Under the pieces are notes generated by a model. That model was not told the DNA's origin, did no database searches, and worked only from the letters and a program-made list of their open reading frames with translations. 64,000 bases of DNA from Lingula anatina. Taxonomy: Eukaryota; Animalia; Brachiopoda. Position 1 is the stretch's first letter, and every line of letters begins with the position of its first letter. The stretch lies in the NCBI GenBank assembly GCA_051362555.1, contig CM120643.1:24618848-24682847 (forward strand), written 5' to 3'. The position numbers and the translations under genes are program-made. Below, piece after piece: positions 3,618 through 63,260 of this stretch.

Positions 3618-6600
3618 CTATTTAGAGCAGACAACACAGGCCAGTTCTCTTCCATCCACATATGGTGGACAGGGGAGGGTACCACACTTAGCTTCAGCAG
3701 TGTAGAACAAGGCCCCGTTTTTGTCCTCATGACCCCCAGCTACCACTTCTGGAGCTTCATCGAGGCAGACAAACTCTGTTCTATGAAAAGTATCGTGTTC
3801 TGATATCAGGTATCCATTGTACTCTGTTGTCCACCCAGCTGGACATGTCTTCTTGGCTGGTATCATCACATGACTGGGACGTGTTTGGGTGTAGCATACA
3901 GCACAGGGGGCATCATGGTCTTTAAAATTCTGACCTCCTGTATTGATTGTTGAAAATATGTTAGATTTAATATGTTCATATTCCACACCATGTATGTAAG
4001 AGCCTAAATCTTGTCCTCCATCTTGGTATTTCCCCCACTCTGGTGTCTGTGGCATACACAGGTAATTACTGCCTCCTCCAGTTTTGTCGTAGTAGGTTCC
4101 AGCCGATATCCCTGATATTAAAAATGATAAAATGCACTTTTTTAGATTTAAACTAACTATAGGTGTAAAATTTAAAATAAAAATGTATAAATATATTATA
4201 TGTATAACAATTATTATTATTATCTTGAAGGCAAGAAAAACCTCACTTTAAAGGCCTGTGTTTTTATTAATTTACCTTTGTACAAAAGCTTTGAGTGCGT
4301 TGAACAAGTTGTTCTGCCCCAATGTGTATAAACTGCCCCACCGTGGCTGGTATTGGCTGGTAGACCTAAAAACATACTGTAAATCTAGACAAACATGTTG
4401 TATACACTGCTCCACCATGTCTGGTATTGGCTGGTAAACCTGAAAACATACATTAAACAAAGAGAACCATATTGTGTACACTGCTCCACCATGGCTGGTA
4501 TTGGCTGGTAAACCTGAAAATATATATTGAACCTAGAGAACGATATTGTATACACTGCCCACCATGGCCGGTAATGCTCTTATACAAGATACTATGAAAA
4601 TGCACACTTTCAAAACAGACCTCTTTATGATCAACTTAATGTTGCACAGCAATCTGTAGCCCATTCATCAGTATAGCTCTCTTATAAGAGTAAAACCTTC
4701 AATAGAATGGAAAAAATGAATCTATCTAATTAGAAGTCAGTGCAGAGAAATGTAGAACGGATCCCCCCCCCCCCAAAAAAAAAAAAAAAAAAAAAAAATT
4801 AACATAATCAAAAGGAAGAGATTCATGTAGTTAAAACAACAGACAAACCTGTAGATGGCACCCCTTTTTGAGCTGCAATTTGTCCCAGCATTTGTTTGAG
4901 TGTATCCAATGTTAGAGATCCTGGGTCTCCTTTAGGTCCAGGTGGTCCCTTGGGAAATTGAACAAAAATATTGGAAATGCTATAATTACACATAGGAATG
5001 TATATTAACAGAATTATAAACTGGTGATATCAATTATAGATCTGTTATCTATGAGTTGATTATTTGGAATAACATATCAAGAACATTTTCAGAAGTATAT
5101 CTCATGGAACACTTAATATTTCCCATTTTTCATGATATTTTAAAAAAGTAGAAAACAGTTTAATGTGTATTTTTTGATATTTCAAGAATTGGATATCATA
5201 GTTCATAGATTACATTATTGTCTAATTTTAAATCAAAACTAATATAAATATTCAACCATAATTTTGAATTACAAAACTAGCATAGATCGATATAGCCATC
5301 ATGCTAAGTTTTACCTGTATTCCATCTCTGCCATCTTTACCATCTCTCCCAGGTAATCCCTGTGGACACTGAACACTGCTCCCTGAGGAATTGACAACTG
5401 AAAAGTATATATTAGTAATACATTTTTTTTATTTCTTTGGATAATAACTTTGTCTTAGTGAAATCAATAAATGTATTTCATAATTACATATCAATTCTGA
5501 CAGTTACCTCATCATTCACAAGACATCAGTCAGTCATCACAACTTAGGGCTAAACATAGCCCAGAGGTGACCTCACCCAAAATCAATCATTTAAAATACT
5601 AAGTAGTACAGGTAAATTGAAATATAATTTAAAATATCATTTTGCATCTTATATTTAACTGTTACTAGTAAGGGATTGTTCTTCATGATATTTGATATTT
5701 AAAATGAATGTTTTATTGTTTAGAAAGATAGGGTATCATTGGATAAGACCTTATGTGGTAGCAAAATGTTTTCTGTTTTAAGTTATCATATAGAGTGCAG
5801 ACCTTTACCATTACCTTGTAGTGGTGACTGATATCCAAGCAGTCCAATGATTTGCTTGAGACTGTCTACTGTTAAACCTGGGTTCTGTGGATTAATTAAG
5901 GTATTTGGAAGATAAAGCGATGAAGTGTTCACATTTTGTCATTTCCCACAATAAGAACAAAAAATGGTATGTAATGTTAAAATTAAATCATATCTACATA
6001 AAAAAAATATGTATGATATTTATTTGGTATTTTTTCACTTTCAATTCCAACTTATTATGTCACATGTCCATGGATTCATACTGAAGAAGCAATTGTTAAA
6101 TATTATTACTAACAAAATTTTTTTGTTATAGCACGTGATAGTCATGTAATTTATCACAATTGAAGATGAGTGAAATTACCCAAATTCCATCCTTCCCATC
6201 CCTGCCATCTTTTCCATCCTTACCATCCCTGCCATCTCTTCCTGGGGGTCCTTGGGGTCCTTGTACACAGCCTGAACTTACCACTAAAATACATGTATTT
6301 TGATGCTGAGTGTCAGCTTAGGGATACATGCTAATGTTATCCGTCATGTAAATATTTTCATATAGAAGGCAGGATTGTCCCACTTTGATATAAATTTTTT
6401 TCTGACAATGTAGGTGAATAGTTACCCCAACTTGAGGCCACAGCAATAACAGTCATAATCAGCAGACATTGCTTAAATACACCTACTACTTCTTATATTG
6501 TGGAACAACAGAAATAAGCATCCTATTAAATTGGGGTTTTATCATTCCCCATAATTAAATTTGGGGCATATTCCTTTAACCCTGCAGTATATTTTATCAA

Positions 6601-7187
6601 ATTTTGTGATATCTGGTTTTGTACCATTTTTGATTAATCAAAAATGGTGCAAAAAGTTAATATAAGACTTTAATAAATAATATTATAACTTACAGTTTCC
6701 TTGCTGCACTTGTCTCTTGGTAATAGAATGGTGAAAGTTTGTTGCATTTCGCTCAGGAACAGTGACTGTTTGTGAATCTAGCTTCAACTTGATTTTCTGA
6801 ATATCTGACTGATTAAAAAGATTTGATTAGTCTTTTACTATCATTTTAAATATATGGAAATTAAATTATGTAGGCTGTTAAAGATGTTAATTTTTGTTAT
6901 TTGACTACAGTGAAGAGAGACAATTAAGGGATCAAACTATTGGAAAATTCACAATCATACAATTAGGCAAGTTGTGAAGCACAAAATACCTTAAGTTGTT
7001 TGTTTTCCTGTTTTACTGCAGCAACCTCCGCCTCCAACCTTTTCAGGAATGCTATCTCTCGTTCTTGCTTGTCCAGTCTTTCAACCAGTTTCATCAACAC
7101 ATCATCATTATTGACATCAGCATGATGTTGTAAAGTTGATGCAGAGACAGTAGCAACAATAAGGGCAGTGAATACATGAAAATACAT
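3618..7187 (-). CDS. Paralogue A: secreted short-chain collagen C4/spongin-like protein, long form, 8 exons, 417 aa
   Basis: Exons 7187-6990, 6808-6694, 6283-6180, 5884-5815, 5397-5315, 4948-4849, 4365-4276, 4111-3618; phases compatible, total 1254 nt, no internal stop. Signal peptide MYFHVFTALIVATVSA, Gly-X-Y runs, head VYTHWGRTTC...GGGSNYLC...APCAVC...CPAGWTTEYNGYL...LPCPPY...CVVCSK. Alternative ATG at 7199. Confidence 0.9.
4325..4575 (-). repeat. 74 bp tandem repeat built from the splice acceptor and 5' half of exon 7
   Basis: The unit tttYag|gtYtaccagccaataccagccaYggtgg recurs with exon-start positions 4365 (true), 4439 and 4513, plus a decayed fourth unit. Confidence 0.85.
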
Positions 7188-9043
7188 GATGTGCAGCATT
7201 TAAGGACAGTCAAGATTATGACCTGGGTGAGGCTTAGAAAAGCTCTTTTATCAATTGATTGGCCCTTAATTTATCAATTGGACTTGTCAAACACGGACAG
7301 TGTGGGGCTTAGCAACTCAGATTTTTACCAATATTTGCTCTAGTGAGCATGTAGGACAGAAGCACATGGTTCAGTAATAAAGTCAGTTGTGAATTAAGAT
7401 ATTACAGTAAGCTGCTTGTCTATTTTTTCTATTAATCTCTCTTGACAAATTAACCAGTAACACATTCAATCACAAACCTCTTACTCCTCAGTTCTCCTGA
7501 ATTAAACTCTAAAAAGTAGATTATGTGGGCACCACCAGGTACTCTTTACTCAAGATTTGACAGTTCATTTATCTTTTCAATTTAATATAGCTTACTGATA
7601 TCATTCAAACACATACAAGCACATGCTTCATTCTGCTCCTTAAATCTCAAATAAAAGTTGCATTTTCTATGTATACAAACTTATAACTTTTACCCAAGTG
7701 CCAGCTCTTTTCCAGTATATGCCATGCAGTTGAACTGTCAGTGAAAGTTTTTTTTTCAGTTCCTACACTTTTTGCACTATTTATTTCTTAGTTTATTTCT
7801 GTATTAATTAACTTACTGTTTTCTTATAAATTTTTCATACCAATTACTGGTATGTTCTTCTAGATGCAAAAGATAATGTTGTTTCAGCAAGCTTTGTAAT
7901 TTAGCATTAGCATTTAGAAACTCAGAGAATTATTCTAAAAAATATTAAAATTATAACAAGCCACATATAGATGTCAGTCAAAAATCACAGGTGGTTAGAA
8001 AGCTGTGTTCTGAATGGGTCTTAATTGGTAAATTACACATGGGTTTAAACATTAATGGAATGCATTTTCAAAGATTTTTCTAGCACCTACTTTGCTGGCT
8101 TTGTCCCTTGGAATCTTGAAGTACACAAATATCAAATTTCTAAACATTTGTACTTCCAGCACCTGTTTTGCCAGCTTTACCTCCTGGAATGTGTTAGTTG
8201 TACTGTGCCTCAACCATTGTGACCAGATATCTGAGACATTGTGCTTACCATTCATGTTAATTTGTTAATTCTCAAGATACATGTACTTAAACCCTTTCTC
8301 AAGATACATGTACTTAAACCTTAAAAATTTTAATGCCTCTTTTTCAGAAAACAATTCCATTTTTTCTTTAAAGGAAATTACAAGACGGCATACTAATTGA
8401 TATTTCTGATCATATACCAATTTAGGTGTCTGTCATGCTGTTGTCTGGAAAACCATTTTTAATGACTTACTTAAATTATCTTGTTTGCATTTAAAAATTG
8501 GAAGGAGAAAATCTTTTAGATAAAAAAAAATTAGTAAGTACTGAATGTAAAGTTAGATATGTAAACCTAGAATGTGAATTTTAAAATTAGTTTTCCATTT
8601 TTAAAGGAGGCAGAAATTACTAAGCATTCTTTCATATAATTTTACAACACAAGGCAAGTTTGCCACTAATTTGATTACAGGAAAAAAATGGAAAAAACTG
8701 AATTTCTGCTCTTCACAGTTATTTATTTACTCTACAGACACAAAACAATAGATCAAAAGCATATAATTATATTTGAAATCTTCAATTTTCATGAATAAAT
8801 CAAAAACCTAGAGTACATGTAGGCCATTTAAACATTTTTTGTTAATTTACTAATTTGCTGATGAAAATCGACTGGAAATTGCCTGTGACACAAGACTATT
8901 CCTAAGGTCATTCTTCTCTTAGTCACAGGTCATTTTTTCAACATATTTGACACTGTTTAGTACAGACAGCGCAGGTATGTCTCCTTATGGTACTTGTATT
9001 TAGTGCCAATATTACATGTATGACCCATATTTTATGTTCTTCA

Positions 9044-12000
9044 CTATTTAGAGCAGACAACACATGCTAGTTCTCTTCCATCCACATATGGTGGACAGGG
9101 GAGGGTGCCACATTTAGCCTCAGCAGTGTAAAACGAGGCAGCAATTTTGTCCTCATGGCCTCCAGCTACCACTTCTGGACCTTCATCAAGGCAGACAAAT
9201 TCAGTTCTCTGGTGTGTGTTAAAAGCTGATACCAGGTATCCATTGTACTCTGTTGTCCACCCAGCTGGACATGTCTTCTTGGCTGGTATCAACACATGAC
9301 TGGGACGTGTTTGGGTGTAGCATACAGCACAGGGGGCATCTTGGTTAGGAAGATTATGACCTCCTGTATTGGATGTTGAAAATATGTTAGAGTAAATCCT
9401 TTCATATTGCACACCATGTATGTAAGAACCAGTACCTTGCCCTCCATCTTGGTATTTCCCCCACTCTGGTGTCTGTGGCAAACACAGGTAATTACTGCCT
9501 CCTCCAGTTTTGAGATCATCAGTTCCAGAAGCTATCCCTAAAGATAAAGTTATATAATTCAGACATTTTGAATTGTAAGCTTAGTTGCCTATATTTTTAT
9601 GCAGAGGAAGATCAAGTATAAAATCTTTTAAAATGTAGTACATGTACGGTATACTGAATTATCCCTAGAAAAACTATTTGTTACAACATGCATTTTACCT
9701 TTGTACAAAAGTTTTGAATGTGTTGAACAAGTTGTTCTTCCCCAACGTATGTATACTGTCCCACCATTGTTGTTATTGGCTGGTAGAGCTGAAAACATAC
9801 AGAAAACTATATTGTGAACACGGCCCTACTACATGTATGTCTGGTAGTGCTCTAAGACCAGATAACATAAAAATGTACACTTTAGAACTGACGTCACACT
9901 TATTTTTGCACAACAACCTTTGTTACTTTCTACCAGGGCCACAGATTGATTTTTCACAGAATATTCACAGGTATGCCTTTAGATAAATAGACGGTCATTT
10001 TACTTATCTGATCCTGTAATGAAATCTCTAGGCTGATTACATGTGTGGTAATTGTTTGCATAACTGTCCAGGCTAAGTCACTTTGACAGCAATGAAGACA
10101 GTTAATTGCTCTGATTTAAATCACTTGTTCTTTTGTGACAAATAAAAGTAGCCCCTTCTGAATACTGTAGCTTGTTACAACATATTGAAAATAATTGAGA
10201 AATCTCCTTAGCAGCTCCCTATAGAACCGGTACAATTCCATCTGTGTGCAGGCAGATTTAACTGCTAGCTTCCATCTGGCCAAAAATCACACAGTGGTTT
10301 TTCCAATTTTTCCCTGTATAATCTTCCACCCTGGTAGAGGGTAAACCTTTGTAACATTTATCAGAACAACTGTCTGTTTAATAAAAAGTAAAACCCTCGA
10401 TAAAATGGAAAAAATGAATTTGTTAATGAAGTCAGTGGACAGTAACATACAGAACAATTAACAAAACTAAAAGGAAGAGGTTAACATAGTTAAAGCACCA
10501 GACAAACCTGTTGGCAGCACCCCTTTCCTTTCCAGCATTTGTTTGAGAGTATCCAATGTTAGAGATCCTGGGACCCCGTTAGGTCCAGGGGGCCCCTTAG
10601 CAAATAGAAAAAAAATTAATTATGAATTATTTTTATGAATTAATAACAAACTATTTGTATGTTTTTACAAAAAACAAGAACAAAAATTATAATGTTGAAA
10701 TGAAATCATATCTACATCAATATATATTTATTTGGTATTTTTTCACTATCAATTCCAACTTATGTATGTCACATCCCAAGCCTTAACACTCTAGAAGCAA
10801 TTTTTAAATATTGTATAATTATTATACGAGGGTTGATTGATAAGTAGTGAGCCTCATATAGAAGGCGTACACATTTTACAACATAGTCTCCTTGAGTATC
10901 TATACACTTTTGCCAGCGAGTTTTGAGAGCCTCTATGCCACTTTTATAGAAGCCCTTCTCTTGGCCGTTCAGAAGCCCCTCCACTTCACGTATGATGTCA
11001 TCATCTGACACAAAGTGAGTACCTGAAATGGCCTTTTTCAATTTGGGAAATACATAATAGTCAGAGGGAGCAAGATCAGGCGAATTAGGTGGATGTTCTA
11101 TCAGTTCAAAGCCACACTCGTTGATTGCAGCCATGGCAATTACAGACTTGTGAGCAGGGGCATTTTGCAAAAGTCACTTGCCTTGCTTATTTGAGAGTGC
11201 TACCTCGTCAACATAAACTAACCAAATGACACCAAACTTCTGCTACACCCCATTAGATAGTCTGGGAATAGAAGGGCTGAAAAGGGACATCCCTGCTTAA
11301 CCCCTTCCACACGAGGCTCACTACTTATCAATCAAACCTCGTAATTATATATGATGGCATACAATTTTATTCAAGAAGAAAATTTATTCTAAAAGTCATG
11401 GAATCTGTCATAAGAGAAGATCAGTAAATTAACCTGAATTCCATCTCTGCCATCCCTGCCATCTCTTCCTGGGGGTCCCTGGGGTCCTTGTAGACACCCT
11501 GAACTTACCACTAAAATACAGGACACAGTGGTTTGAATTGCTGGTTTTTAACAGGATACAGATGCTGCACATTGATACTCAACCATAAAATGCCTATTGT
11601 CACATATAATATTATATAAAATCAATACATCCTCTTGATATATCTTATCAGGAATTGTATAAAATGTCAGTTCAAGACTTCTAACAAATGATAGCTTACA
11701 GTTTCCTTGCTGCACTTGTCGCTTGGTAATGAAATGGTCTCCATGATGATGATTTGTTGTATTTCGCTCAGGAACAGTGACTGTTTGTGCATCAAGCTTC
11801 AACTTGATTTTCTGAATATCTGACTAATTAAAAAGATTTTATTAGTCTTTTTACTATAGATATGTCATTTTCAGGAAATTGTTGAACATAGCTATAGGTT
11901 GTTAATATGTTTTTGTAATTGATGATAGATAAGATCTTGTGGGTAATTCACAATGATGGGGTTGAGCAGAATTTTAAGCACTAAATACCTTTAGTTGTTT

Positions 12001-12180
12001 GTTTTCCTGCCTCATAGCAGCAACCTCAGCTTTCAGTGTTTTCATCTCTTGTTCCTGCTTGTCCAGTCTTTCAACCAGTTTTATCAACACGGCATTACTG
12101 GCACTGTCATGATGATGATGTCTTAAAGTTGATGCAGAGACAGTAGCAACAAAAAGAGCAGTGAATACATGAAAATACAT
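9044..12180 (-). CDS. Paralogue B: short-chain collagen C4-like, short form, 6 exons, 354 aa
   Basis: Exons 12180-11989, 11823-11700, 11510-11434, 10595-10508, 9788-9699, 9537-9044; 1065 nt, intact; lacks the equivalents of exons 4-5. Confidence 0.9.
10827..11341 (-). mobile_element. Internally deleted mariner (Tc1/mariner) element, 515 bp
   Basis: 29 bp TIRs cgagggttgattgataagtagtgagcctc, TA on both sides, transposase C-terminus NAPAHKS...HPPNSPDLAPSDYYVFPKLK...RWQKCIDTQGDYV. Confidence 0.92.
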
Positions 12181-15321: not shown

Positions 15322-18300
15322 TAATTTTATTAATCTTTTCAATTGGATGTTGGTAAAAAAAAACTTGTCACATATTTTCATATTTGAATGATTTCTCTTT
15401 TTCCTTCAAGTAAATGTATAATATTAATGCTACTTGTATCTCTAACATAATTCATAATTGTTAAGTACACAAGTGTTAAAACATCCAAAATTCATTTTAC
15501 CAAAATACTCCCAGCACTTGTTCTGCCAGCTTTACCTCCTGGAATGTGTTAGTTGATCTGTCTCAACCATTGTGACCAGATATCTGACACATAATGCTTA
15601 CCATTCATTTTGAGGCCTAGTTTTTTAAGACTCTTTCACTGTGTTTCTAAGTATTTCAAAGTATTAAAGTATTAGATTCTAATTACTGTGTCTGTCTATT
15701 TGCCAATCAAGTAACTTTAAAAAGTCGTTCACAATTTTTAATTAATTTTCTATAAAAACCATTTAAAGGAGAATTGTTTTTTATTAAAGTAAAATACTAA
15801 ATGTAAAGCCAAATCTCAATCTGAAATGTGTATATTTTGACTATAATACTTCTTTGAAGGAGGCAAAAATTACATACGTGTTATGTATAACTGCATGGTA
15901 TAGGTCATATTTAGCAATAATTCTAATTCAACATAATTGAGACCTAAGGTCACTATTTAAAAATAACACTGTCAAACCATTCTTTTAATGGACTCTATTT
16001 AGTACAGACAACACAGGCCAGTTCTCTTCCATCCACATATGGTGGACAGGGGAGAGAACCACACTGAGATTCAGCAGTGTTGAACAAGGCACCATTTTTG
16101 TCCTCATGACCTCCAGCTACCACTTCTGGAGCTTCATCAAGGCAGACAAACTCTGTTCTCTGATGGACATCACGATCTGATACCAGGTATCCATTGTACT
16201 CTGTTGTCCACCCAGCTGGACATGTCTTCTTGGCTGGTATCATCACATGACTGGGGCGTGTTTGGGTGTAGCATACAGCACAGGGGGCATCATGGTCAAC
16301 AAATTTCTGATCTGTATTCGATGTTGAAAATATATTTTGATAAATAAAGTTATATTCCACACCATGTATGTAAGAACCAGTACTTTGTCCTCCATCTTGG
16401 TATCTCCCCCACTCTGGTGTCTGTGGCAAACACAGGTAATTACTGCCTCCTCCAGTTTTGGTGTAAAAGGTTCCAGCTGATATCCCTATAGGTATGAAAA
16501 TTAGTTATAATATCAGTCACTTTGTCAATTATGAAAAAATATATATGTATGTACATATATACAAACACCCCTTTTATTATTATTATTATATTATTATTTT
16601 AAAGCTGAATAGAACTTCACTTACCTTTGTACAAAAGCTTTGAATGTGGTGAACAAGTTGTTCTACTCCAGCGTGTGTAAACTGCCCCGCCGTGGCTGGT
16701 ATTGGCTGCTAGACCTGAAAACATACATTAAATCTTGAGAACCATATATATATTGTTTAAACTGCCCCACCATGGTTGGTATTTGGTGGTAGACCTAGAA
16801 ACATGAAAACATACACTAAAAATAGTCATCAAGCATAATATTGCACAGTAATCCTTCTCCCTATTGCCAGAATAATGGTGTCTAATAATGGCACAAAAAA
16901 GGATAATTTTGGCACCAACATTCATATTTAGCGAATTATTATTGGATAAACAGCATGTTCCTTGGGTTTACCAGCCTTTAATCTTCCTTTCCTGATACTC
17001 ACATCTCTGTAAAAATTTTGGAAAAAGCCAAAGATCATAAGCGGACTTCAAGGTTTTTCATGTACACCATTCCTTTCATTGACTGAACTGAACTACAATT
17101 GCAACATAAATGCAGTGCCCTTTTCAAACCGTGTCAAGACAATTAAGACCATTTAGCGGTCATTTTATGTTTTAAGGGTATGAATTTCCCTATCAGATAT
17201 GTTCAACAAAAAGCAATCCATGCGCTTAGAATGTGATTTAAATCCTTTTTTGTGTGGCTTTAAGCGATAAGTAAAACTTTCATGAAATCTAAAAATAAAG
17301 TCAGTGTCAGAGGAAAGAAGACTACATTCCCCATATAAAAAAAAATAATCATCATTATTAAAAAAGAAGTGCCTGATTTAGTTATAGCACTATACAAACC
17401 TGTAGATGGCACCCCTATCTGAGCTCCAATTTGTCCCAGCATTTGTTTGAGGGTATCCAGTGTTAGAGATCCTGGGTCCCCTTTAGGTCCAGGGGGTCCC
17501 TTAGAAAATTCAACAAAAATATTGAAACTGCTATTTCACAAAGGAATATATATGAACAGAAGTATAAACTGGTAATATAAACTACAAATTTGTTATCTAT
17601 GAGTTGAGTATTTGAAATTACATGTCAAGATATTTTAGAGGTTTATCTCATGGAACATTTAATATTTCTTTTTAAACATGCATTTTCATGATATTTCAAG
17701 AAGAACAAAACAGTTTAAAATAGATGCACATTTTCATGACATTTTAAGACTGAAGTGGATATCATAGTTCACAGATTGCATTATTGTCTAATTTTCAATA
17801 AAAACCCAATATGATCCAATCATGATTTTGAATTAAAAAATGAGTAACTGTATACGTATCATGCAAGTTTTACCTGTATTCTATCTCTGCCATCTTTACC
17901 ATCTCTCCCAGGTAATCCCTGGGGTCCCTGAACACTGCTCCTTGAGGAGTTGACAACTGAAAAGGATATCTTAGTAAATATAAATGAAAATAATTATCAT
18001 TTGCATCTGATATTTTTCTGTTTTAACACTTAGTGTTAAAACACTTAGTGATTGGCTTTGATGAGTTATATTTAAAAAATATTGTTTAAAAAGGACTGGC
18101 ATCATTTTTCATCATTTTCCACCTAAAATCTATAAATATTTTAAAATGTCGACTAAACTATCATAACTTAATATATCATCTATAATATAGAGAGCAGACC
18201 TACGATTACCTTGTAGTGGTGACTGATATCCAAGCAGTCCAATGATTTGTTTGAGACTGTCTACTGTTAAACCTGGGTTCTGTGGATTAATTTATTTGTA

Positions 18301-18768
18301 ATAATAAAAGGTGAACATTCCTTGGGGAGTCATTTCTTACTTTGAGCATGAGGTTTATTAACATTCGAATCAAATTGCATCCACATGTACATCAAGTCAG
18401 TATTCTATATACATATCGATCGTGTTCACTATCAACTTATTTGGGCCAAAAAACTACAGTTCAGTACATTCTCATTACTTTTATATCAAAAAGGGATTCA
18501 TGTATTTTTTCACAAACAAAAATGAGTAAAGTTACCTGAATTCCATCTTTCCCATCTTTTCCATCCTTGCCGTCCCTGCCATCCCTGCCATCTTTCCCTT
18601 GGGGTCCTTGGGGTCCTTGTAGACACCCTGAAGTTGCCACTAGAACATATTATACAGATATATATTAGATTTGAAGTACTTATTTTACGTGAAGTTGCTG
18701 TTAACTGTAAGTCAACCATTGCATGTAAATATCTGTTTTCAAATATTTACCATACCCGGTACAGTTAA

Positions 18769-19083
18769 AGAGATAACTCTTTGTATGAGATCTATATTTC
18801 ACAATAAAAAACATTGTGAACAACTCATAGAAATATAATATATTCTGTTTTACCACAAAAACGGCTAAAACGGCAGTTATAGCTATTATTCTGATATCTG
18901 AGCTTGTCTTTAGACCACGTGACCTCCATTGATGGCTATACCCTGTTATTATCTCTTAAGAGATTATAACAAAAAAAAACTTTTTAGAAAAAAACCAGGG
19001 ACAAACTGAATATAAAAATGGAAAAATTGTTGTTTACTCTATGAAAATTCATTTTTTGGCCAAAACAAAGAGTTATTATCCCT
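18769..19083. mobile_element. Kolobok-like MITE
   Basis: TTAA flanks; same family as 13433 and 20127, opposite orientation to the 20127 copy. Confidence 0.8.
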
Positions 19084-19614
19084 TTAAGTGATTTGTTGGC
19101 TTACAACATTGGGAATGATGATGTAAACTGTTTAACATACAGTAGAATTATCTATTAATAAAAGTAACAGTTTTTACATGTGAAATTAATGTATCTGAAA
19201 ATGTAAGGCTTTGGTGAACTCAGAAATATAAAACAATCAGAGGATAAAACTTACAGGTAAAAACTCCTAATGATATCTTTAGGAACGTATTTAATAAATG
19301 TTTGAATGTAGGATATAGAGTTTAATATATTTCTAAATTTATTATTACTAAACATGGAGCATATCTTTTTTTTTAAATCATGTTAAGCAATAAAATTTTG
19401 TTAAAATGGTATAAATAAGTTAATGTAGACCTGTAACAAATAATGTTACAGCTTACAGTTTCCTTGCTGCACTTGTCTCTTGGTTATAGAATGGTTTCCA
19501 TAGTGAAACTTTGTTCCATTTTGCTCAGCAACTGTGATCGTACCCATGGTCTGTCCATTGAGCTTCAACTTGATATCTGACTAATATGAAAACAAAGCAG
19601 AAGAATATATATTT

Positions 19615-19970: not shown

Positions 19971-20126
19971 AATTAAATGTGTTAATAGATACGTGATTCT
20001 AAATACATGGAAATTGTAGAACATACATTTTCATTTTTCATTGACATTCAAGATAAGGTGGACAGAACTATTGGTAAAAACCACAATCATGCTGAGAGAC
20101 GTAATTCAAAGCCCAAAATACCTTAA

Positions 20127-20883: not shown

Positions 20884-20887
<4 letters not shown>

Positions 20888-20937
<50 letters not shown>

Positions 20938-45593: not shown

Positions 45594-45595
<2 letters not shown>

Positions 45596-45646: not shown

Positions 45647-45649
<3 letters not shown>

Positions 45650-52406: not shown

Positions 52407-54847
52407 CTATTTAGTACAGACAACACAGGCCAGTTCTCTTCCATCCACGTAAGGTGGACAGGGGAGAGAACCACACTTAGCTTCAGCAGTGTAGAAGAAG
52501 GCACCATATTTTTCTTCATGGCCACCAGCTACCAATTCAGGAGCTTCATCAAGGCAGACAAACTCTGTTCTCTGGAAAATATCATGATTTGATACCAGGT
52601 ATCCATTGTACTCTGTTGTCCACCCAGCTGGACATGTCTTCTTGGCTGGTATCATCACATGACTGGGGCGTGTTTGGGTGTAGCATACAGCACAGGGGGC
52701 ATCATGGTAACGAAAATTCTGACCTCCTGTATTGGATGTTGAAAATATGTTAGGCGTAACATATTGATATTCCACACCATGTATGTAAGAACCTAAATTT
52801 TGCCCTCCATCTTGGTATTTCCCCCACTCTGGTGTCTGTGGCAAACATAGGTAATTACTGCCTCCTCCAGTTTTGTCATGGTGGGTTCCAGCAGATATCC
52901 CTGATATAAAATTATAAAGGCCATTTTTAAAGATTTTACTCTTTAATCATAGATGTCAAATTCAAAATTATATATACAGGCACCATACAGGCTCACTACT
53001 TATCAATCAACCCTCGTGTGTATATATATATATATCGAGAATTATCTCGAGTTCGAGATATTATTATATATATAATATCATTATTAGATTGTACGCATAG
53101 AGATAATTCTCGAGGAATATGATAATGCTGCTTCAATAACGTTCATCCTAAAACACCCCTAAAACCGAATAAAGTGACCCTATATCACGCTCTAGAGATG
53201 TTATACGGAATAAACTCGTCCACGTGCGCTGGTCACCTCCCGCCAAATTCTTACGTAATAATGTCTGTCCAATTTGGTCAATTTTTGCTAAATACTTGTC
53301 GTGGACGTTCAACTGGCTTGAGAAGTATTTAATCAACCGTCAACACTGACCATGCACGTCTCAGCTGAGCCACACCTAGCTCGGACTGCTGCAGAAATAA
53401 GGTCCCAAGGCAAAACCTTTACTTTTTAGTGACATTTTTGTTAAAAAGGGAGCGTCGGACCGGAATATAGTCAAACTTATTTTTCACAAGTGCAAAGGAG
53501 AAAGAAATTTACTTTTTGGTGATATTTCTGACAACGAGGCAGTTTCGGAATTTATTTAAAATCGACGGATGTTTATAACAAGTTCACCAGAGTAATAATT
53601 CTAGTTTTTTTATTGTTATTTCTGACAACGAGGCGGTTACGGAATATAGTCAAAATCAAGCGGATGTTCATTTCAAGTCCACAGGAGTAATGGTTCTACG
53701 TTTTGGTGACATTTTTTTTTACTACGAGGCGGTTTCGGAATATACATGTGCTGGTTTTCAGACCATTCATGTGCTACATGTAATTACAAATTCAAAGGGG
53801 GAATGCATTTGATTTTTACCGTTATATCTGATAAAGAGGAAGAATGAACAGCTTAAAAACAAAAGGTAAATAACACAATCCTCGTTAAAATTTATAGATT
53901 TACAAATAATTTGTATGCATGTGTGGCTTAAATGTAAGCTATTCCCCGTTTTCACACCATACCCATATGATATGACTTGGTGTAATAAAATGATAAATAA
54001 TAATTGTTAAACGTGAAAAGTTTATGCTAATTTTTTAAGAGCGTGAGAGATTTTAAATTTGTCTACTGTCCACTATTCTCTTGATGCCAAGAAGATCATA
54101 TGTTCACTCTGCCTTTGGCTTTCAGCATTAAAAAGACCTCGACTGATTTAACCAAGATGTAGTCATGAAATTCTAGACTACATCGAGGTTAAATCCGAGT
54201 TTTCCGAGAGACGCTACGCAGAAATGTCGAGTGAAGCGAGACATTTTTGGGTAGCGGCTCGAGGTTGCCCTCGATCTTCACTGAAGCTTGCCTAGTAAAT
54301 GGACAGGCTTCAGTGATCATCATATCGCCACGGTCATATAACATCCCTAGGTATGTATGCAGGGACATCCTTTTTAAGCCCTTCTATTCCCTGACTATTT
54401 AAAGGTCTGTAGCCGAAGTTTGGTGTCATTTGGATAGTTTATGTCGACAAGGTAGCACTCTCAAATAAGCAAGGTAAGTGACTTTTGCAAAATGTCCCTG
54501 CTCACAAGTCTGTCATTGCCATGGCTGCAATCAATGAGTGTGGCTTTGAACTGATAGAACATCCACCTTATTCGCCTGATCTTGCTCCCTCTGACAATTA
54601 TCTATTTCCCAAATTGAAAAAGGCCATTTCAGGTACTCACTTTGTGGCAGATGATGACGTCATACGTGAAGTGGAGGGGTTTCTGAACGGCCAAGAGAAG
54701 GACTTCTATAAAAGTGGCATAGAGGCTCTTAAAACTCGCTGGCAAAGTGTATAGATACTCAAGGAGATTATGTTGAAAATTAAAGAAAAATACTTGTAAA
54801 ATGTGTACCCCTTCTATATGAGGCTCACTACTTATCAATCAGCACTC

Positions 54848-54924
<77 letters not shown>

Positions 54925-57900
54925 TTTTTCAAAAATTTGTATTATTATTATCATTTTACATTGTTATTATTATTTTGAATAGCACTTTACCTTTGTGCAA
55001 AAGTTTGGAATGTGTTGAACAAGTTGTTCTGCCCCAACGTATGTACACTGCCCCACCATGGTTGGTATTGGCTGGTAGGCCTGAAAACACATATTAAACC
55101 TAGAGAAACACATTGGACTGGTAAACACTGCCTCACAATGGCTAGTATTACTCATACACCAGATACCATATGAAAACTAACACTTAAAGAACAGACATCT
55201 TAATGATCAACTTACTAGTAATGTTGCACAAGTTTTATCCAGTTAATAGCTGTCTCTAAACTAAAAAAACTAAAACATTTAAAAAATGGATGAAAATTGA
55301 ATGCACTAATGAAGTCCTATCAATGCAATTAAAGTGTAGAACGTATTCCCTAATTAATAAAAAGAGATTCACGTATACTGTGCATAGGTAAAGCACCAGA
55401 CAAACCTGTAGGTGGCACCCCTTTCTGAACTCCATAATGACCATCAATTTTTAATTATAAAATATTAGTATCACGGATATTCAGAAAATGTGACTAGCAA
55501 AGGTCTTAAGACCCATGGAACTTCAAAGTCATGACTTGAAAATGCCAAAATGTAAACATGACAGCACTGTTCTGAAATGGGTTTATTTCCATTTTTAACA
55601 CTTTCTTAACATAAAACTAAATAAACATTTTACTGCCATTTTTATATGACCAACTGAGAAAATTGATGAGATTGGGAAAGTATCAATAGAACAGTGTTAA
55701 ATGTCCGATTTCCTCCATTCTGAGATTCTGAACATAGTGGATGATTGAATCTGACAAACTGCAATGATATGAGTGTATTTCCATTTTTGACACTATATTA
55801 CACAATACATAATAAAAAGTTCACCATCATTTTAACATAATCAACTAACAATGTTGTAAAGATGCAGAAAATATCAAACAAACACTTTTACATATCTTAT
55901 TAGTTCAATAATGAGACTGTTAACATGCCTAAAAATTGAATCTGAGGAAATGTGAAAAAAACAGTATAACTTCTAAAATAATGCCCCGATTATGCTGATT
56001 TTCAAACTCAACCTGCATTTTAGCAGGATTGACAACTCCTGTGAGTATAATGACAATTGGCCAATCTGTTTTTCTTATATTGTGTTATCTGTGTTGCATA
56101 TATATTGAAAAAAGTGAAAAAACAGCATAACTTCCCTAAAAATGGCCCGATCATGCTGATTTTCGAACTTGACCTGCATATTATGAATATTCATCAGTTT
56201 TGTAAGTTTCAAGCCAAAAAGTAAAATGGTTTTCCACTTATCGTGTTATCGGTGCTGCATATATGTTGAAAAAAGTGAAAAAACAGCATAACTTCCCTAA
56301 AAATGGCCCGATCATGCTGATTTTCTAACTTGACCTGCGTATTATAAATATTCATCAGTTCTGTAAATTTGAATACAAAATGTAAAACGCTATCCCACTT
56401 ATCGTGTTATCGCTGAGTGCACGGCGACGGCCACAGCGACGACAGACGCAGGTGACGGCTATATGTACAGGCACATCTGTGTCTGTACATAAAAACATTT
56501 TTCCACTTATCGTGTTATCGGTGCTGCATATATGCTGAAAAAAGTGAAAAAACAGCATAAATTCTCTAAAAGTGACCCGATCATGCTGATTTTCGAACTT
56601 GACCTGCATGTTATAAATATTCATCAGTTCTGTAAATTTGAATACAAAATGTAAAACGCTATCCCACTTATCGTGTTATCGCTGAGTGCACGGCGACGGC
56701 CACGGCCACGGCGACGACAGACGCAGGTGATGGCTATATGTACAGACACATCTGTGTCTGTACATAAAAACATTTTTCCACTTATCGTGTTATTGGTGCT
56801 GCATATATGCTGAAAAAAGTGAAAAAACAGCATAAATTCCCTAAAAGTGACCCGATGATGCTGATTTTCGAACTTGACCTGCGTATTATGAATATTCATC
56901 AGTTCTGTAAGTTTCAAGCCAAAAGGTAAAATGGTTTTTCCACTTATCATGTTATCAGTGCTGCACATATGCTGAAAAAGTGAAAAAACAGCATAAATTC
57001 CCTAAAAGTGACCCGATCATGTTGATTTTAGAACTTGACCTGCGTATTATGAATATTCATCAGTTCTGTAAGTTTCAAGCCAAAAGGTAAAATGGTTTTC
57101 CACTTATCGTGTTATCAGTGCTGCATATATGCTGAAAAAGTGAAAAAACAGCATAAATTCCCTAAAAGTGACCCAGTCATGCTGATTTTCGAACTTGACC
57201 TGCATATTATGAATATTCATCAGTTCTGTAAATTTGAATACAAAATGTATTTAACGGTATTCCACTTATCGTGTTATTGCTGAGTGCACGGCAACGGCGA
57301 CGGCGACGACAGACGCAGGTGACAGCTATATGTACAGACACATCTGTACATAAAAATGTCTGTACATAAAAATGTAAAGAGTAATTAAAGAGCATAGGAC
57401 ATTAGAGTTATTAGACAAACCTGTTGTAGTTGGCATGCCAATCTGAACTCCAAGTTGCCTCAGCATTTGTCTCAGGTTGTCTAAGGTTAGAGAAACTGAT
57501 TCCCCTTTTGGTCCCGGTGGTCCCTTAAAAAAACAATGTGTGAAACATACTTAGCCTATTAGCTTCTATTACATTAAGACTGGGTTCCCATGCTAGATCG
57601 ATCCATCTGGATTGGTCTAACTCCCTGGGAAGTCTCACTAAATTGCCGTCAACTAACTGGCTCAAATGTCTGTCACGCCTACAGAATCGGCTAGGGTGTA
57701 AATATAATTACCCCCCTAACAGCCTTAATAGGCGTGACAGACATTTAAGCTGGTTAAGTTGATAACAATTTAGTGAGGCTCCCCAGGGAGATAGATCGGT
57801 CCAAATATCTGTGGGATTGGTCCCTAATAAACCTACATTGTAGTATGGTTACTACTGATACAATATTATGTGCATCATTAGATAGATTAATTTCGCATAC

Positions 57901-59432
57901 TAATACAATTTGAACGTTTATCTTAGGATACTCTTTTTCTTAATCAAATGTGATATATTTTCATGATATTTGAAGGTTTGAACAAGATACAAAGGGTTAA
58001 AAGTTATCAGTACATAGTTTGTATGAATAACGGAGTTTGAATTATTATGTTTCCAATTTTTAACCTATGTCAAACGTGAGACATGGCTCTGAATTGTAAA
58101 GCTAGGGAATAACCTTACTTTTATTACTTTTAGAAAAAGGTTTTTGATATTCTGTTCACACAGATACATGTATCAAATAACTCATAGTATTACATGTATG
58201 TAGCAGATTATTCTAATGGCTTTATATCTGCATATAATCAACTTGTTTATAAATGCCATAAGTAAGAATCTCATTGCTTTATTATCAAGCATTTTTTGTA
58301 AAATTATTTTTTAGAATTATACATTTTTTTTCTTTGCAAAATTATGATATATGGATGCACATATTTCAATAGAAAAAGCTGTTTATTCTTAAATAACATC
58401 TTGTACATAATTATTTGTAAAGTAAGTCTGGAAAATTAAGTAAACCTGGAATCCATCCCTGCCATCTCTTCCTGGAGGTCCCTGGGGTCCTTGTACACAG
58501 ACTGAACTCGCCACTAAAATAAAGGACACAGATATAAGTTGATTTGAATAACTGGTTTTCAACAATGAGACTGATGCTGTAAGCTGCCCTAAACTATTAA
58601 GCATACTTTAAAGATATAAGACAGCCAAAAGGTACTGCTGAAATACTGCTAGGGGAATAACAGAATTAATAAACATTTGAATAAACATTTGAATGTATGC
58701 TTAGAAATTGGAGTTAATGCATCTTCACTCTTTTTTTATTAAATGTGGAACATATACTTTAAGTTGCTTTTTTTTATCATGTTTAGCAATATTCCTCAGG
58801 TTATATTGTGTAAACATGGTGTAAACAAGTCAACATATTAAGAACTATTACAAGTAATTTAGCTTACAGTTTCCTTGCTGCACTTGTCTCTTGGTAATGG
58901 AATGCTTTCCATAGTGAAACTTTGCTCTGTATTTTTCAGCAGCCATGGTGGTTTGCCCATCAAGCTTCACCTTGTCTTTCTGAATATCTGACTTATTTGA
59001 AAGTGAAAGAAAAATTAATCATAGTTTTAATTGGTCTACAGATATGTGATTTTTAGATCATGGGAATTGTAGAACTTAGATTGTTAATTATTGTGTTTGT
59101 TTTAACTATTCATTGACATTTAAGATAATTATTGGTACAAACCACAATCATGCCGAGAGACAATTAAAATTCAAAGCTCAAAATACCTTAAGTTGTTTGT
59201 TCTCCAGTCTGACTGCAGCAACCTCAGCCTCAAGTTTTTTCATTTTTTGTTCTTGTCTGTTTAGTTTTCTAACTAGATTTTTTATCTCTAGTTCTTGCCT
59301 GTCCACTCTTTCAACCAGTTTCATCAAAGCATCATTATTGACATCAGCATGATGTTGTAAAGTTGATGTTACTACTGTAATAACAGCAGCGTGTACAAAG
59401 AGAAATATTAACTTGGTCATGGTGTACACCAT
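52407..59432 (-). CDS. Paralogue F: short form, 6 exons, 374 aa; apparent chimera of two paralogues
   Basis: Exons 59432-59187, 58991-58868, 58513-58446, 57523-57421, 55080-54991, 52900-52407; 1125 nt, intact. An orphan 3' stub of a second exon 6 with a donor but no acceptor lies at 55434-55406. Confidence 0.82.
53030..54355. mobile_element. Unclassified CpG-rich insertion, about 1.3 kb, in the last intron of F
   Basis: Absent from all paralogous introns (which are 130-210 bp); internal repeats ttctgacaacgaggcggtttcggaat; no clear TIR or ORF. Confidence 0.5.
54360..54848 (+). mobile_element. Internally deleted mariner, second copy, 5' TIR displaced
   Basis: HPPYSPDLAPSDNYLFPKLK; right TIR ends at 54848 before (TA)n; same deletion junction as the 10827 copy; an isolated TIR lies at about 52989-53016. 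Confidence 0.9.
55433..57372. repeat. Second copy of the composite repeat with a 161 bp array
   Basis: 55433-56100 matches about 47294-47800 and 49598-49740 without the nested MITE; 161 bp units at about 56070-57280. Confidence 0.85.
57577..57825. mobile_element. Decayed palindromic MITE
   Basis: ctccctggg...ctcactaaattg...aaatgtctgtcacgccta inverted against taggcgtgacagacattt...caatttagtgag...ccagggag. Confidence 0.55.
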
Positions 59433-60065: not shown

Positions 60066-63000
60066 CTATTTAGTACAGACAACACAAGCCAGTTCTCTTC
60101 CATCCACATATGGTGGACAGGGGAGAGTTCCACATTTAACTTCAGCAGTATAGAACAAGGCACCGTTTTTGTCCTCATGACCACCAGCTACCACTTCTGG
60201 AGCTTCATCAAGGCAGACAAATTCTGTTCTATGGTTGCCGTAACTATCATGTTCTGATACCAGGTATCCATTGTACTCTGTTGTCCACCCAGCTGGACAT
60301 GTCTTCTTGGCTGGTATCATCACATGACTGGGGCGTGTTTGGGTGTAGCACACAGCACAGGGGGCATCATGGTCATAAAAATTCTGACCTCCTATATTGG
60401 ATGTTGAAAATATGTTAGACTTAACGTGTTCATATTCCACACCATGTATGTAAGAACCTAAATCTTGCCCTCCATCTTGGTATTTCCCCCACTCTGGTAT
60501 CTGTGGCAAACACAGGTAATTACTGCCTCCCCCAGCTTTGTTGTAGTAAGTTCCAGCAGATATCCCTGATATAAAAAGTTATGAAACCTTTTTAAAGATT
60601 TTAATCTGTAACCATAGGTGTCAAATTCAAAATGAAAAAAAAAATTATAGTCAAACATTTGTATTATTATTATCATTAACATTGTTATTATTATTTTGAA
60701 TGAATGGTTTAATAGAATCACACGTAAGAAAGATGTTCTTTTAGCACTTTACCTTTATACAAAAGTTTCGAGTGTGTTGAACAAGTTGTTCTGTCCCAAC
60801 GTGTGTAAACTGCCCCACCATGGCTGGTATTGGCTGGTAGACCTGACGATATACACTATTTATGAATTCAGCACTTGGAAATTGAGCATGCATTCACCCC
60901 AACCAAAGAATTAACAAAATTAAAAGGAAGAGATTCACATAGTTAAAACACCAGACAAACCTGTAGGTGGCACTCCTTTCTGAGCTCCAATTTGTCCCAG
61001 CATTTGTTTGAGGATATCCAATGTTAGAGATCCTGGGTCCCCTTTAGGTCCAGGTGACCCCTTAGAAAATTGAACAAAAATATTAAAACTGATATTTAAC
61101 AAAGGAACATACATTATTACATATTAAGTATAAACTGATGCATATTTAATCAAATTGCTTTATAGGTTGCATTATTCTCTAATTTTCAATCAAAATAAAT
61201 ATAATTTTTCAATCATAATTTTGAATTACAAAGCTATTGAATATATATATATATATATATCCGTATAGCCAAATGCTAAGTTTTACCTGCATTCCATCTC
61301 TGCCATCTTTTCCATCTCTCCCAGGTAATCCCTGTGGTCCCTGAACACTGCTCCTTGAGGAGTTGCCAACTGAAAAGTACATGTATATCTTGTGACAATA
61401 ATTCAGAGAGTTTTCTTTTAATTGCATATCACTTTGGGCAGTTACCTTACCATTCACAAGGCATCAGTCAGTGGTCACAACATCAGGCCAAACATAGCCC
61501 AGAGGTGACCTCATTCAAATCAATAATTGTATAGTTGGAAGTATTACAGGTAAATTGAGATTTGAATTAACATATTATTTTGCATCTGATACTTTACTGT
61601 TGCTACTAAGTGATTGTTCTTCATGATGTTTATTTGAAATAAAATTTTATTATTTAAAAAAAGGCATCAATTGATGAGACCTTAATTTATGTGAAAGCAA
61701 AGTGTTTTCTGCTTTAAGCTATAATAAAGAGAGCAGACCTACCGTTACCTTGTAGTGCTGACTGATATCCAAGCAGTCCAATGATTTGCTTGAGACTGTC
61801 TACTGTTAAACCTGGGTTCTATGGATTAATTTAAGATATTTGTAATAAAAAGCAATGAAGTGTTCAGATTTTGCCATTTCCCTCATTAAGAACAAAAAAG
61901 GGTAAAATTATTTGACATTTATTTTGTATTTTTTTTTTCACTATCAATTCCAACTCATGTATGTCACATGTCCATGGCTACATACTATAGAAGCAATTGT
62001 TACCTCCGCCAAGGAGGTTATGTTTTGACCCCTGTTTGTTTGTTTGTTTGTCTGTCTGTCATCAACATAACTCAAAAAGTTATGGACCGATTTTGATGAA
62101 ATTTTCAGGAACTGTCGGCCAAGGAACAGATGATTAGTTTATGGTGGTGATCTGGAGCAATAATCAATAATAATAATCAAAAATTGCTGCCTTGGCGGAA
62201 GTCTGCACTTTCAGATGCTTTTCTAGCATGTTGTATGATTATTACTACCAATAATTATTTGTTATGACATATGATTTTATTTTAGAAGGATAAATTATTT
62301 TAAAAGTAATTTATTGCAATTGAAGATGAGTTAAGTTACCCGAATTCCATCTCTACCATCTTTGCCATCCCTTCCATCCCTGCCATCTTTGCCCGGGGGT
62401 CCTTGCACACACCCTGAACCCACCACTAAAAAATATGACACAGATGCTCATTTTCAGCATGGGGACACATTTTAATGTTATCTGTCATGTAACTATTTAG
62501 GCTACATCGATAACAGTCATGGTCAGAAGAAATTGCTTAAATACGCCTAATAGTAATTATGTTGTGGAAACAACAGAAATAAGCATCTGATAAATAAATT
62601 GGGGTTTTATGATTCCCCATTATTAAATTTGGGGTATATACCTTTAATCCTGCAGTATTCTTATCAAGATTTATGATATTTGGTTTCTTAACATTTTTGA
62701 TTAAACAAAAAGGGTGCAAAAAGTCAATATAAGACTTTAACAAATAATATTATAACTTACAGTTTCCTTGCTGCACTTGTCTCTTGGTAATAGAATGGTG
62801 AAAGTTTGTTGCATTTCGCTCAGGAACAGTGATAGTTTGTGCATGAAGCTTCAACTTGATTTTCTGAATATCTGACTAATTTTTAAATTAAAAAAGTTTG
62901 ATTAGTCTTTTTACTATAGATATTTCAATATCAGTAAAGATTATAGAATGTGGGCTGTTAAAGATGTTAATTTTTTTATATTGATAGCAGTGAAGAGAGA

Positions 63001-63260
63001 CAAGGGATCGAACTATTGGAAAATTCACAATCATACAATTAGGCAGAATTTGAAGTACAAATTACCTTAAGTTGTTTGTTTTCCTGTTTTACTGCAGCAA
63101 CCTCCGCCTCCAACCTTTTCAGGAATGCTATCTCTCGTTCTTGCTTGTCCAGTCTTTCAACCAGTTTCATCAACACATCATTATTGACATCAGCATGATG
63201 TTGTAAAGTTGATGCAGAGACAGTAGCAACAAAAAGGGCAGAGAATACATGAAAATACAT
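60066..63260 (-). CDS. Paralogue G: long form, 8 exons, 412 aa
   Basis: Exons 63260-63066, 62875-62761, 62425-62340, 61818-61749, 61369-61287, 61060-60961, 60842-60753, 60565-60066; 1239 nt, intact; 2 aa insertion in a variable loop (EHDSYGNHR). Confidence 0.9.
62000..62226 (-). mobile_element. Helentron-type non-autonomous element (HINE / pearl-like), second copy
   Basis: ttacctccgccaaggaggttatgtttt...(tgtt)n(tgtc)n...cttggcggaag...ttttctag; absent from the homologous intron of A (about 6090). Confidence 0.78.

What the first reader, a model, noticed from the sequence alone, without database searches (positions are those of the whole stretch)
3618..63260. Tandem family of spongin/NC1-like secreted proteins with a fixed framework and hypervariable loops: candidate diversified recognition system
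Seen: in the seven head exons the framework is almost invariant (GGGSNYLC.PQ.PEWG.YQDGGQ, GSYIHGV.Y, DAPCAVCYTQTRPSHV.IPAK.TCPAGWTTEYNGYL, RTEFVCLDE, Y VDGRELACVVC). Change is concentrated in short patches, listed A-G. HV1: YYD, DDL, FYT, YYS, YWT, HHD, YYN. HV2: DL, GT, ST, GT, NL, NL, DL. HV3: EHIKS, ERIYS, NFIYQ, ELIRT, ERIYS, QYVTP, EHVKS. HV4: QNFKD, HNLPN, QKFVD, QDLLD, QNPGQ, QNFRY, QNFYD. HV5: EHDTF, AFNTH, DRDVH, ALDSH, THDNF, NHDIF, EHDSYGN. HV6: DKNGAL, DKIAAS, DKNGAL, NKDGAL, NKNGAL, EKYGAF, DKNGAL. The changes are radical and rich in aromatic, His and charged residues, and the two in-frame indels fall in or beside these patches. Known: such proteins are normally annotated as structural short-chain collagen C4-like, whereas this pattern is typical of ligand-binding families under diversifying selection (C1qDC, FREP, VCBP). 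Inference: a germline-encoded repertoire of soluble binders (immune, allorecognition or gamete/adhesion) on an NC1-like scaffold. I know of no description of this, but could not search.
Basis: partly seen in the sequence, partly recalled or inferred. Interest (0 to 1): 0.88.

Follow-up and report, generated by a model that had tools for sequence, protein, structure and literature searches.

The report
Spongin-type collagen cluster with hypervariable loops
This is a tandem cluster of seven spongin-type short collagen genes (five intact) from a probable lamp-shell genome, whose collagen-IV-like heads differ mostly in six short loops predicted to share the outward face, likely kept different by selection so that the secreted proteins would bind different targets.

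Summary
Confirmed: seven minus-strand copies; five intact, C split by a 9.6-kb insertion, E truncated and frameshifted. [quoted passage not shown] Variation clusters in loops (p=5e-5). Genes are mosaics, and the head framework is short of silent changes, which points to gene conversion. Standard codon tests favour positive selection (LRT 46; 11.5 for intact five), but the signal vanishes with free site-rate variation (LRT 1.5) and only partly survives realistic caps (13.0, 6.5). Two of three paralogue sets from other organisms tested this way flag the same loops. Sites chosen in one set give omega 4.0 here and 8.5 in another. By homology the loops map to collagen IV's distal trimer face (inferred; trimer not modelled). 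RNA shows spliced transcripts and loop variants absent from the window. Best reading: collectin-like diversified binders (0.5); no ligand is shown. No paper describing this turned up in my searches. The scan noted a similar mussel array earlier, reported without selection.

The parts
3618..7199 (-). Copy A, intact, 8 exons (6990-7199, 6694-6808, 6180-6283, 5815-5884, 5315-5397, 4849-4948, 4276-4365, 3618-4111), 421 aa: signal peptide, coiled coil, KR site, two 9-triplet Gly-X-Y runs, NC1-type head
   Evidence: open frame, AG/GT at all junctions
9044..12180 (-). Copy B, intact, 6 exons, 354 aa, one 10-triplet Gly-X-Y run
   Evidence: RNA reads join 11989/11823 and 11700/11510 at CT..AC
15995..30356 (-). 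Copy C: exons 2-8 open (15995-19580); exon 1 split into about 20465-20636 and 30281-30356 by a ~9.6-kb insertion with inverted ends; probably non-functional in this haplotype
31328..34998 (-). Copy D, intact, 6 exons, 370 aa, 8 Gly-X-Y triplets
35642..36358 (-). Copy E: only exons 7-8 present, 2-nt frameshift just after HV1; pseudogene
   Evidence: only short weak matches (13-37 nt) to 5' exons in 36401-52400
52407..59420 (-). Copy F, intact, 6 exons, 370 aa; mosaic: 5' part groups with D, 3' flank groups with B
60066..63260 (-). Copy G, intact, 8 exons, 412 aa; 5' part like A, 3' flank like E
4086..4094 (-). HV1 in copy A (alignment columns 36-38); column 38 is flagged here and in two other paralogue sets
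4005..4010 (-). HV2 in copy A (columns 64-65)
3963..3977 (-). HV3 in copy A (columns 75-79; sites 76, 78 flagged)
3918..3932 (-). HV4 in copy A (columns 90-94; site 93 has seven different residues in seven copies)
3801..3917 (-). Silent-poor core block (columns 95-133): 2 of 34 invariant columns vary silently vs 30 of 87 elsewhere; likely homogenised by gene conversion
   Evidence: scan p=0.017
3786..3800 (-). HV5 in copy A (columns 134-138); aligns with collagen IV SM1' hairpin
3708..3725 (-). HV6 in copy A (columns 161-166), weakly variable

Best explanation
The window holds a birth-and-death cluster of spongin short-chain collagen-related genes (five intact, two broken) whose secreted, likely trimeric products carry collagen-IV-NC1-type heads that differ mostly in six short loops predicted to lie on the outward face, and selection likely keeps those loops different so that the proteins would bind different foreign or surface ligands in the manner of collectins. 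Shown: gene structure, fold, loop clustering, mosaic genes, spliced transcription and extra loop variants in other individuals. Inferred: unequal crossover and gene conversion shuffle 5' and head modules and homogenise the head framework, while short divergence peaks persist at the loops. Untested: trimer formation, the common face, any ligand, any immune role.
For: Architecture: hydrophobic N-terminus, coiled coil, KR site, Cys before 8-18 Gly-X-Y triplets, 10-Cys head; so short a stalk fits collectin/ficolin/C1qDC-like proteins better than fibrils (own knowledge). Codon tests on 7 copies: M1a/M2a LRT 46.0, M7/M8 50.0, M8a/M8 44.3, 40.4 with double-nucleotide changes; 11.5 (p=0.003) for the 5 intact; 0 for N-terminal exons of 6 copies. 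With site rates capped at flank-level neutral distance: LRT 28.9, 13.0, 6.5 at caps 0.4, 0.6, 0.9. In other organisms, 2 of 3 paralogue sets tested (12 and 7 sequences) give LRT 36 with sites in HV1, HV2, the HV3 loop and HV5. Columns 38 and 64, picked in the 7-sequence set, give omega 4.0 (p=0.0007) here and 8.5 (p=6e-9) in the 12-sequence set; here their third positions are invariant across 5 and 4 different residues. 16 of 35 family-wide tolerant columns are invariant here, so tolerance alone does not pick the variable sites. Mosaicism: AU tests reject the 5' tree for head (p 0.014-0.019) and 3' flank (p<1e-4). Divergence peaks under conversion are a described mark of selection (PMC3924837, passages). 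HV5 aligns with collagen IV residues 144-148, the SM1' hairpin of the equatorial layer. Expression elsewhere: neuroglandular cells in Nematostella (PMC12549020, passages); top gill transcripts beside C1qDC and apextrin in mussel (PMC4581086, table passages).
Against: With free site-wise rates the test is null: LRT 1.5 (7 copies), 0.0 (intact 5), 2.7 and 1.8 in the two other sets. Intact 5 under caps: LRT 2.9 and 0.2. Patches as a whole with their own silent rate: omega 1.65 (p=0.08) here and 0.77-1.00 in 4 other sets. The 9-sequence set is null under M1a/M2a, and the 9- and 20-sequence sets are null in the cross-site tests at the gene-wide silent rate. Cross-site signal here drops to omega 2.0 (p=0.07) at twice the silent rate. 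Patches are loops that vary family-wide (entropy 2.6 vs 1.5). The literature seen treats the family as matrix, adhesion or shell protein. An earlier scan note reports no selection in a mussel array. No ligand or tissue data for this organism.
Confidence: 0.5

Rival explanations
1. Ordinary matrix or shell-organic proteins. The loops are tolerant surface loops drifting near neutrality, and they only look hypervariable because purifying selection and gene conversion hold the rest of the exon nearly identical.
For: Null result with free site rates; patch dN about equals patch dS (0.52 vs 0.55 by NG86), similar to flank distances of roughly 0.3-0.8; patch omega 0.77-1.00 in four other sets; same loops vary family-wide; family described as extracellular matrix (PMC5395295, passages).
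Against: The null model needs 5-9% of codons at 3.6-7 times the mean rate, and the flagged positions recur across organisms. Patches of 6-21 nt persist beside a 43-nt block identical in all seven copies and pairwise identical runs up to 119 nt. Columns 38 and 64 change at positions 1-2 while position 3 is invariant.
Confidence: 0.27
2. The loops are selected, but as a self-docking code: as in collagen IV, heads would meet face to face, and loop differences would set which trimers pair (network assembly, adhesion, gamete or self/non-self matching) rather than bind microbes.
For: The same face joins trimers in collagen IV: the equatorial layer with SM1/SM1', loops Lb7b8/Lb7'b8' and SM3 (PMC6211539, passages; PMC6527180, passages); fold is NC1; family members are up in the anemone pedal disc (PMC6626399, passages).
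Against: Spongin heads lack the domain-swapping region and HSQ motif of collagen IV (PMC5395295; no HSQ here). Rapid turnover, pseudogenes and loop variants between individuals look more like a host-microbe race than a fixed assembly code (inference).
Confidence: 0.2

Closest known systems
[quoted passage not shown] 2006, seen only as cited in PMC5395295 and others)
   Same: Signal peptide, short Gly-X-Y domain, 10-Cys NC1-derived head without HSQ; 40-55% identity to so-labelled and unlabelled relatives
   Different: Very short stalk (8-18 triplets) plus N-terminal coiled coil; young tandem array with conversion and loop-restricted divergence, not described in the papers I could search
Collagen IV NC1 domain (PF01413; PDB 1li1, 5nax)
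   Same: Fold: Foldseek E 5e-5, TM 0.44; VIA Z 7.0, rmsd 4.8, 151 aligned
   Different: 14-20% identity; no Pfam C4 hit in 111 of 111 members; no HSQ; no long collagen domain
Collectins, ficolins, C1qDC and FREP recognition proteins (features recalled)
   Same: Secreted, Cys plus short collagen or coiled-coil stalk, globular head, tandem expansion with variable head surface
   Different: Head is NC1-type, not C-type lectin, fibrinogen or gC1q (no such Pfam hit); no binding shown
ApeC-domain proteins (PF16977), peptidoglycan binders of amphioxus and molluscs (PMC8361754, PMC9585378; search listing and abstract starts only)
   Same: Weak language-model resemblance (score 0.80, 138 of 256 features)
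   Different: Below the tool's threshold for a lead to trust; no Pfam ApeC hit

Membership tests
[quoted passage not shown] | Secreted protein with a short collagenous (Gly-X-Y) domain | tested here: met
   hydrophobic N-terminus (11-residue mean 2.1-3.2) in 5 of 5 intact copies; 8-18 triplets per chain
[quoted passage not shown] | C-terminal NC1-homologous domain | tested here: met
   model of the 89%-identical relative P0001 matches only collagen IV NC1 at Z>=2 among 48,161 chains; 24 Foldseek hits at E<=0.001, the listed ones all NC1
[quoted passage not shown] | Ten cysteines (7 shared with collagen IV + 3 own) and no HSQ motif | tested here: met
   10 Cys and no HSQ in A, B, C, D, F, G; criterion from PMC5395295; positional match to that paper's figure not checked
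[quoted passage not shown] | Forms spongin fibres or matrix networks | not testable with these tools
   needs biochemistry or localisation
Collagen IV | Long collagenous domain and HSQ-containing C4 repeats | tested here: not met
Collectin/ficolin/C1qDC-type pattern-recognition proteins | C-type lectin, fibrinogen or gC1q head | tested here: not met
   no such Pfam match; fold is NC1
Diversified recognition family (works-like claim) | Sites with dN/dS above 1 in the head | tested here: inconclusive
   positive in standard, capped and cross-taxon tests; null with free site rates
Diversified recognition family (works-like claim) | Variable residues on one exposed face of the oligomer | tested here: inconclusive
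   patches lie in loops of the models, HV6 touching a strand end; face inferred by homology; no coordinates or trimer model available
Diversified recognition family (works-like claim) | Paralogue-specific ligand binding or induction by microbes | not testable with these tools
   RNA runs carry no tissue or treatment labels
ApeC-domain proteins | PF16977 match | tested here: not met
   0 of 111 members at E<=0.1

The most novel reading that the evidence does not exclude
Spongin-type NC1 heads are an unrecognised, invertebrate-wide class of collectin-like recognition proteins: the face that collagen IV uses to join trimers has been turned into a variable binding surface, diversified repeatedly at the same loop positions in unrelated animals by selection acting against gene conversion.
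Probability: 0.35. Interest if true: 0.85.

Novelty: new variant of a known kind. Interest (0 to 1): 0.6.

Why it matters
[quoted passage not shown] If their heads are diversified binders, invertebrate innate immunity or adhesion gains a further scaffold beside C-type lectin, fibrinogen and C1q heads, built from the basement-membrane NC1 fold. The five intact paralogues differ mostly at named loop positions (38, 64, 76, 78, 93, 134-138), so a direct binding test is simple to design.

Tried and rejected
No whole genome is held, so the family could not be counted genome-wide. The head-exon-only model lacks the first strand and gave only weak NC1 matches (E 0.17, Z 4.2); the full-domain model was clear. 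Profile and single-sequence PDB searches with the full domain gave no collagen IV hit; only the local alignment did. PHI was significant on all sites (p=0.003) but not with one site per codon (p 0.10-0.40), so recombination inside the head exon is not shown by PHI. The internal two-fold repeat was not significant by pairwise alignment (p=0.16) and rests on the strand pattern. No RNA holder was listed in the index; raw-read runs of the same species label were laid instead. Sequence and place look-ups in earlier findings were empty. Literature searches showed no paper on hypervariability or selection in this family; one search returned off-topic papers; PMC12373286 has no mention of collagen, and PMC13425148 none of spongin or short-chain. 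Aouacheria 2006 did not come up as a held paper and no Lingula immunome paper appeared in the 25 of 33 rows listed; supplements were not read and could list these genes. Codon models are my own implementation (GY94/F3x4, naive empirical Bayes), not PAML/HyPhy.
Full report
Observation. Seven copies of a cysteine-rich head exon lie on the minus strand at 3618, 9044, 15995, 31328, 35642, 52407 and 60066. Variation is clustered: 68 of 195 domain columns vary, 63 of 99 extra residue states in the head exon fall in 28 of 165 columns, autocorrelation p=5e-5 (patches chosen post hoc). HV6 is weak, changes are not much more radical than elsewhere (105 of 132 vs 49 of 66), and aromatic+His enrichment is modest (40 of 182 vs 20 of 154).

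Gene anatomy. A, B, D, F and G have open frames of 354-421 residues with canonical splice sites. Each has a hydrophobic N-terminus, a coiled coil (weak coiled-coil-type Pfam hits), a KR site, a cysteine just before 8-18 Gly-X-Y triplets, a short predicted amphipathic linker (by eye) and a 10-Cys head encoded by exons 7-8. C has open exons 2-8, but exon 1 is split by about 9.6 kb with inverted ends that holds a LINE-type reverse transcriptase. E has only exons 7-8 and a 2-nt frameshift. The closest database proteins are from Lingula anatina (89, 83, 66, 64%); the rest are 40-55% identical, several named short-chain collagen C4-like (120 of 135 listed). The window is therefore probably from a Lingula brachiopod (inference).

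Fold. An AlphaFold2 model of the full domain of the 89%-identical relative P0001 (pLDDT 91.6) matches collagen IV NC1: Foldseek E 4.9e-5, TM 0.44; VIA Z 7.0, rmsd 4.8, 151 aligned, with only 2 chains at Z>=2 of 48,161, both NC1. Ten cysteines and no HSQ agree with the spongin definition in PMC5395295 (passages). The patches lie in loops, HV6 touching a strand end. A weak local alignment puts query 59-106 on alpha1 NC1 97-146. HV5 then falls at the start of SM1' (residues 144-154), and HV4 falls just after the Met93 loop; both belong to the equatorial layer that faces away from the collagen stalk (PMC6211539, passages). HV1 and HV5, and HV2 and HV6, sit at equivalent places in the strand pattern of the two halves; placing HV2/HV6 on loops Lb7b8/Lb7'b8' and HV3 in Lb8b9 uses recalled collagen IV topology. 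One face is thus inferred, not measured.

Conversion and mosaicism. In the five intact genes, 5' exons and introns group D with F (100% support), the head groups B with D (99%) and the 3' flank groups B with F (100%). AU tests reject the other topologies (head vs 5' trees p 0.014-0.019; 3' flank vs 5' trees p<1e-4). D and F differ by 1.5-2.6% in exons 1-3 but 13% in the head; E and G differ by 7% in the 3' flank and 9.5% in the head. Fourfold sites in the head differ at about 0.07-0.19 per pair, against about 0.2-0.4 in most flank comparisons; columns 95-133 have silent variation in 2 of 34 invariant columns vs 30 of 87 elsewhere (Fisher p=0.001; scan-corrected p=0.017). Two other paralogue sets show no such silent-poor core (12 of 23, 14 of 33; a third 12 of 26). 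Gene conversion is the likely cause (inferred); PHI with one site per codon is not significant.

Selection, for. Own GY94 site models on exons 7-8 of 7 copies: M1a/M2a LRT 46.0, omega about 10 at 3% of sites (38, 76, 78, 93, 137); M7/M8 50.0; M8a/M8 44.3; 40.4 with double changes; 11.5 for the intact five; 0 for N-terminal exons; 48-53 on three random trees. With site rates free but capped at neutral distances of 0.4, 0.6, 0.9 (flanks span roughly 0.3-0.8): LRT 28.9, 13.0, 6.5. From 80 of 410 metagenome loci, 78 full heads clustered into six groups of 3 or more; the four largest were analysed. Of three run through M1a/M2a, the 12- and 7-sequence sets gave LRT 36 with 8 of 11 and 2 of 4 flagged sites in the window's patch columns (the other two in an insertion of the HV3 loop); the 9-sequence set gave 3.0. 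Columns 38 and 64, chosen in the 7-sequence set, give omega 4.0 (p=0.0007) in the window and 8.5 (p=6e-9) in the 12-sequence set, still 2.2 (p=0.02) there at three times the silent rate. In the window their third positions are invariant. Several site sets and scales were tried, uncorrected.

Selection, against. With fully free site rates the LRT is 1.5 (7 copies), -1.1 (silent-poor blocks removed), 0.0 (intact five), and 2.7 and 1.8 in the two other sets. The intact five under caps give 2.9 and 0.2. Whole patches with their own silent rate give omega 1.65 (p=0.08) here and 0.81, 1.00, 0.77, 0.78 in the four other sets, against 0.19-0.27 for frameworks. Cross-site tests fade at twice the silent rate in most pairs, and are null at the gene-wide rate in the 9- and 20-sequence sets. 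The patches are loops that vary across the family (entropy 2.6 vs 1.5), although 16 of 35 tolerant columns are invariant here. I put selection at a few loop sites at about 0.7. Persistence of short divergence peaks under conversion is itself a described sign of selection (PMC3924837, passages).

Expression. Four RNA runs of the same species label laid on 900-20700 give low depth on the exons, the right strand in the stranded run X1, and joints at B's introns 1 and 2. Most reads differ from the window by 1-5%, so they come from other alleles or paralogues. On G's head at 82% likeness, four runs gave 232, 65, 274 and 65 reads, 2 of them 99% or more alike. Loose ends and replaced stretches, translated by hand, show loop versions absent from the seven copies: HV1 NYD (11 reads) and a B-like EYL (8 reads), HV4 HNFVQ (6) and QEFVQ (8), HV5 NRDDY (3, as in P0003). 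The repertoire is larger than this window; tissue is unknown.

Mechanism. Best reading (0.5): secreted, likely trimeric, collectin-like binders on an NC1 scaffold; unequal crossover and conversion shuffle and homogenise the genes, selection holds distal loops apart, and copies are lost (C, E). Rivals: tolerant loops drifting in a conversion-homogenised matrix protein (0.27); a selected head-to-head docking or self-matching code as in collagen IV (0.2). Indirect support for a secretory-surface role: Nematostella spongin-like genes are mostly neuroglandular (PMC12549020, passages), and a mussel member is a top gill transcript beside C1qDC and apextrin (PMC4581086, table passages). Other papers assign matrix, adhesion or shell roles by annotation (PMC6626399, PMC12040131, 10.1101/2025.07.05.662347, PMC13093298; passages).

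Novelty. The family is known; membership is met on the sequence and fold criteria. Five searches found no description of hypervariable loops or selection in it, within an open-access library in which the founding 2006 paper appeared only as a citation. An earlier scan note (e1-9866974) describes a mussel array with variable loops but no selection or recent conversion; its DNA was not seen here. Rating: new variant of a known kind, interest 0.6.

Noticed in passing
window 1105-1900 (+) and copy at about 13185-14030 (+): Last two exons of a membrane-protein gene, spliced 1228 to 1837 in RNA; its C-terminus resembles ITFG1/LINKIN (label recalled; no Pfam or PDB hit). The 3' end was duplicated together with the A-type gene in the block 1-7337 versus 12414-20126.
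   Followed up: partly
window about 20637-30280: About 9.6-kb composite insertion in exon 1 of copy C, with ~270-bp inverted ends (93%), a LINE-type reverse transcriptase (21611-24068, -; RVT_1, zf-RVT) and an inner inverted repeat (26486-26646 vs 29154-29312).
   Followed up: partly
window 39656-44637 (-): BEL/Pao-type LTR retrotransposon in several broken frames (DUF1759, Peptidase_A17, integrase zinc domain, DUF5641), upstream of truncated copy E; described only.
   Followed up: partly
window 10769-11299 and 54356-54872: Two copies (89%) of a DDE transposase remnant, mariner-like by recall, inside introns of B and F; transcribed reads lie on the first.
   Followed up: no
window 44571-57372: Dispersed arrays of a ~161-bp repeat (88-94% alike) and a 337-bp tandem repeat (46252-47413).
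   Followed up: no
window 4325-4573: 74-bp tandem repeat (3.4 copies) that duplicates the acceptor and start of exon 7 in copy A; C has one such extra copy (16754-16795). Possible alternative acceptors.
   Followed up: no
L001-L080: Metagenome collections hold many close paralogue sets of this head (410 related stretches); two sets show selection signals at columns 36-38, 64 and in the HV3 and HV5 loops.
   Followed up: partly
P0001 residues 9-197: Weak language-model resemblance to ApeC-domain clusters (score 0.80); a lead only for a deeper NC1-ApeC link.
   Followed up: no
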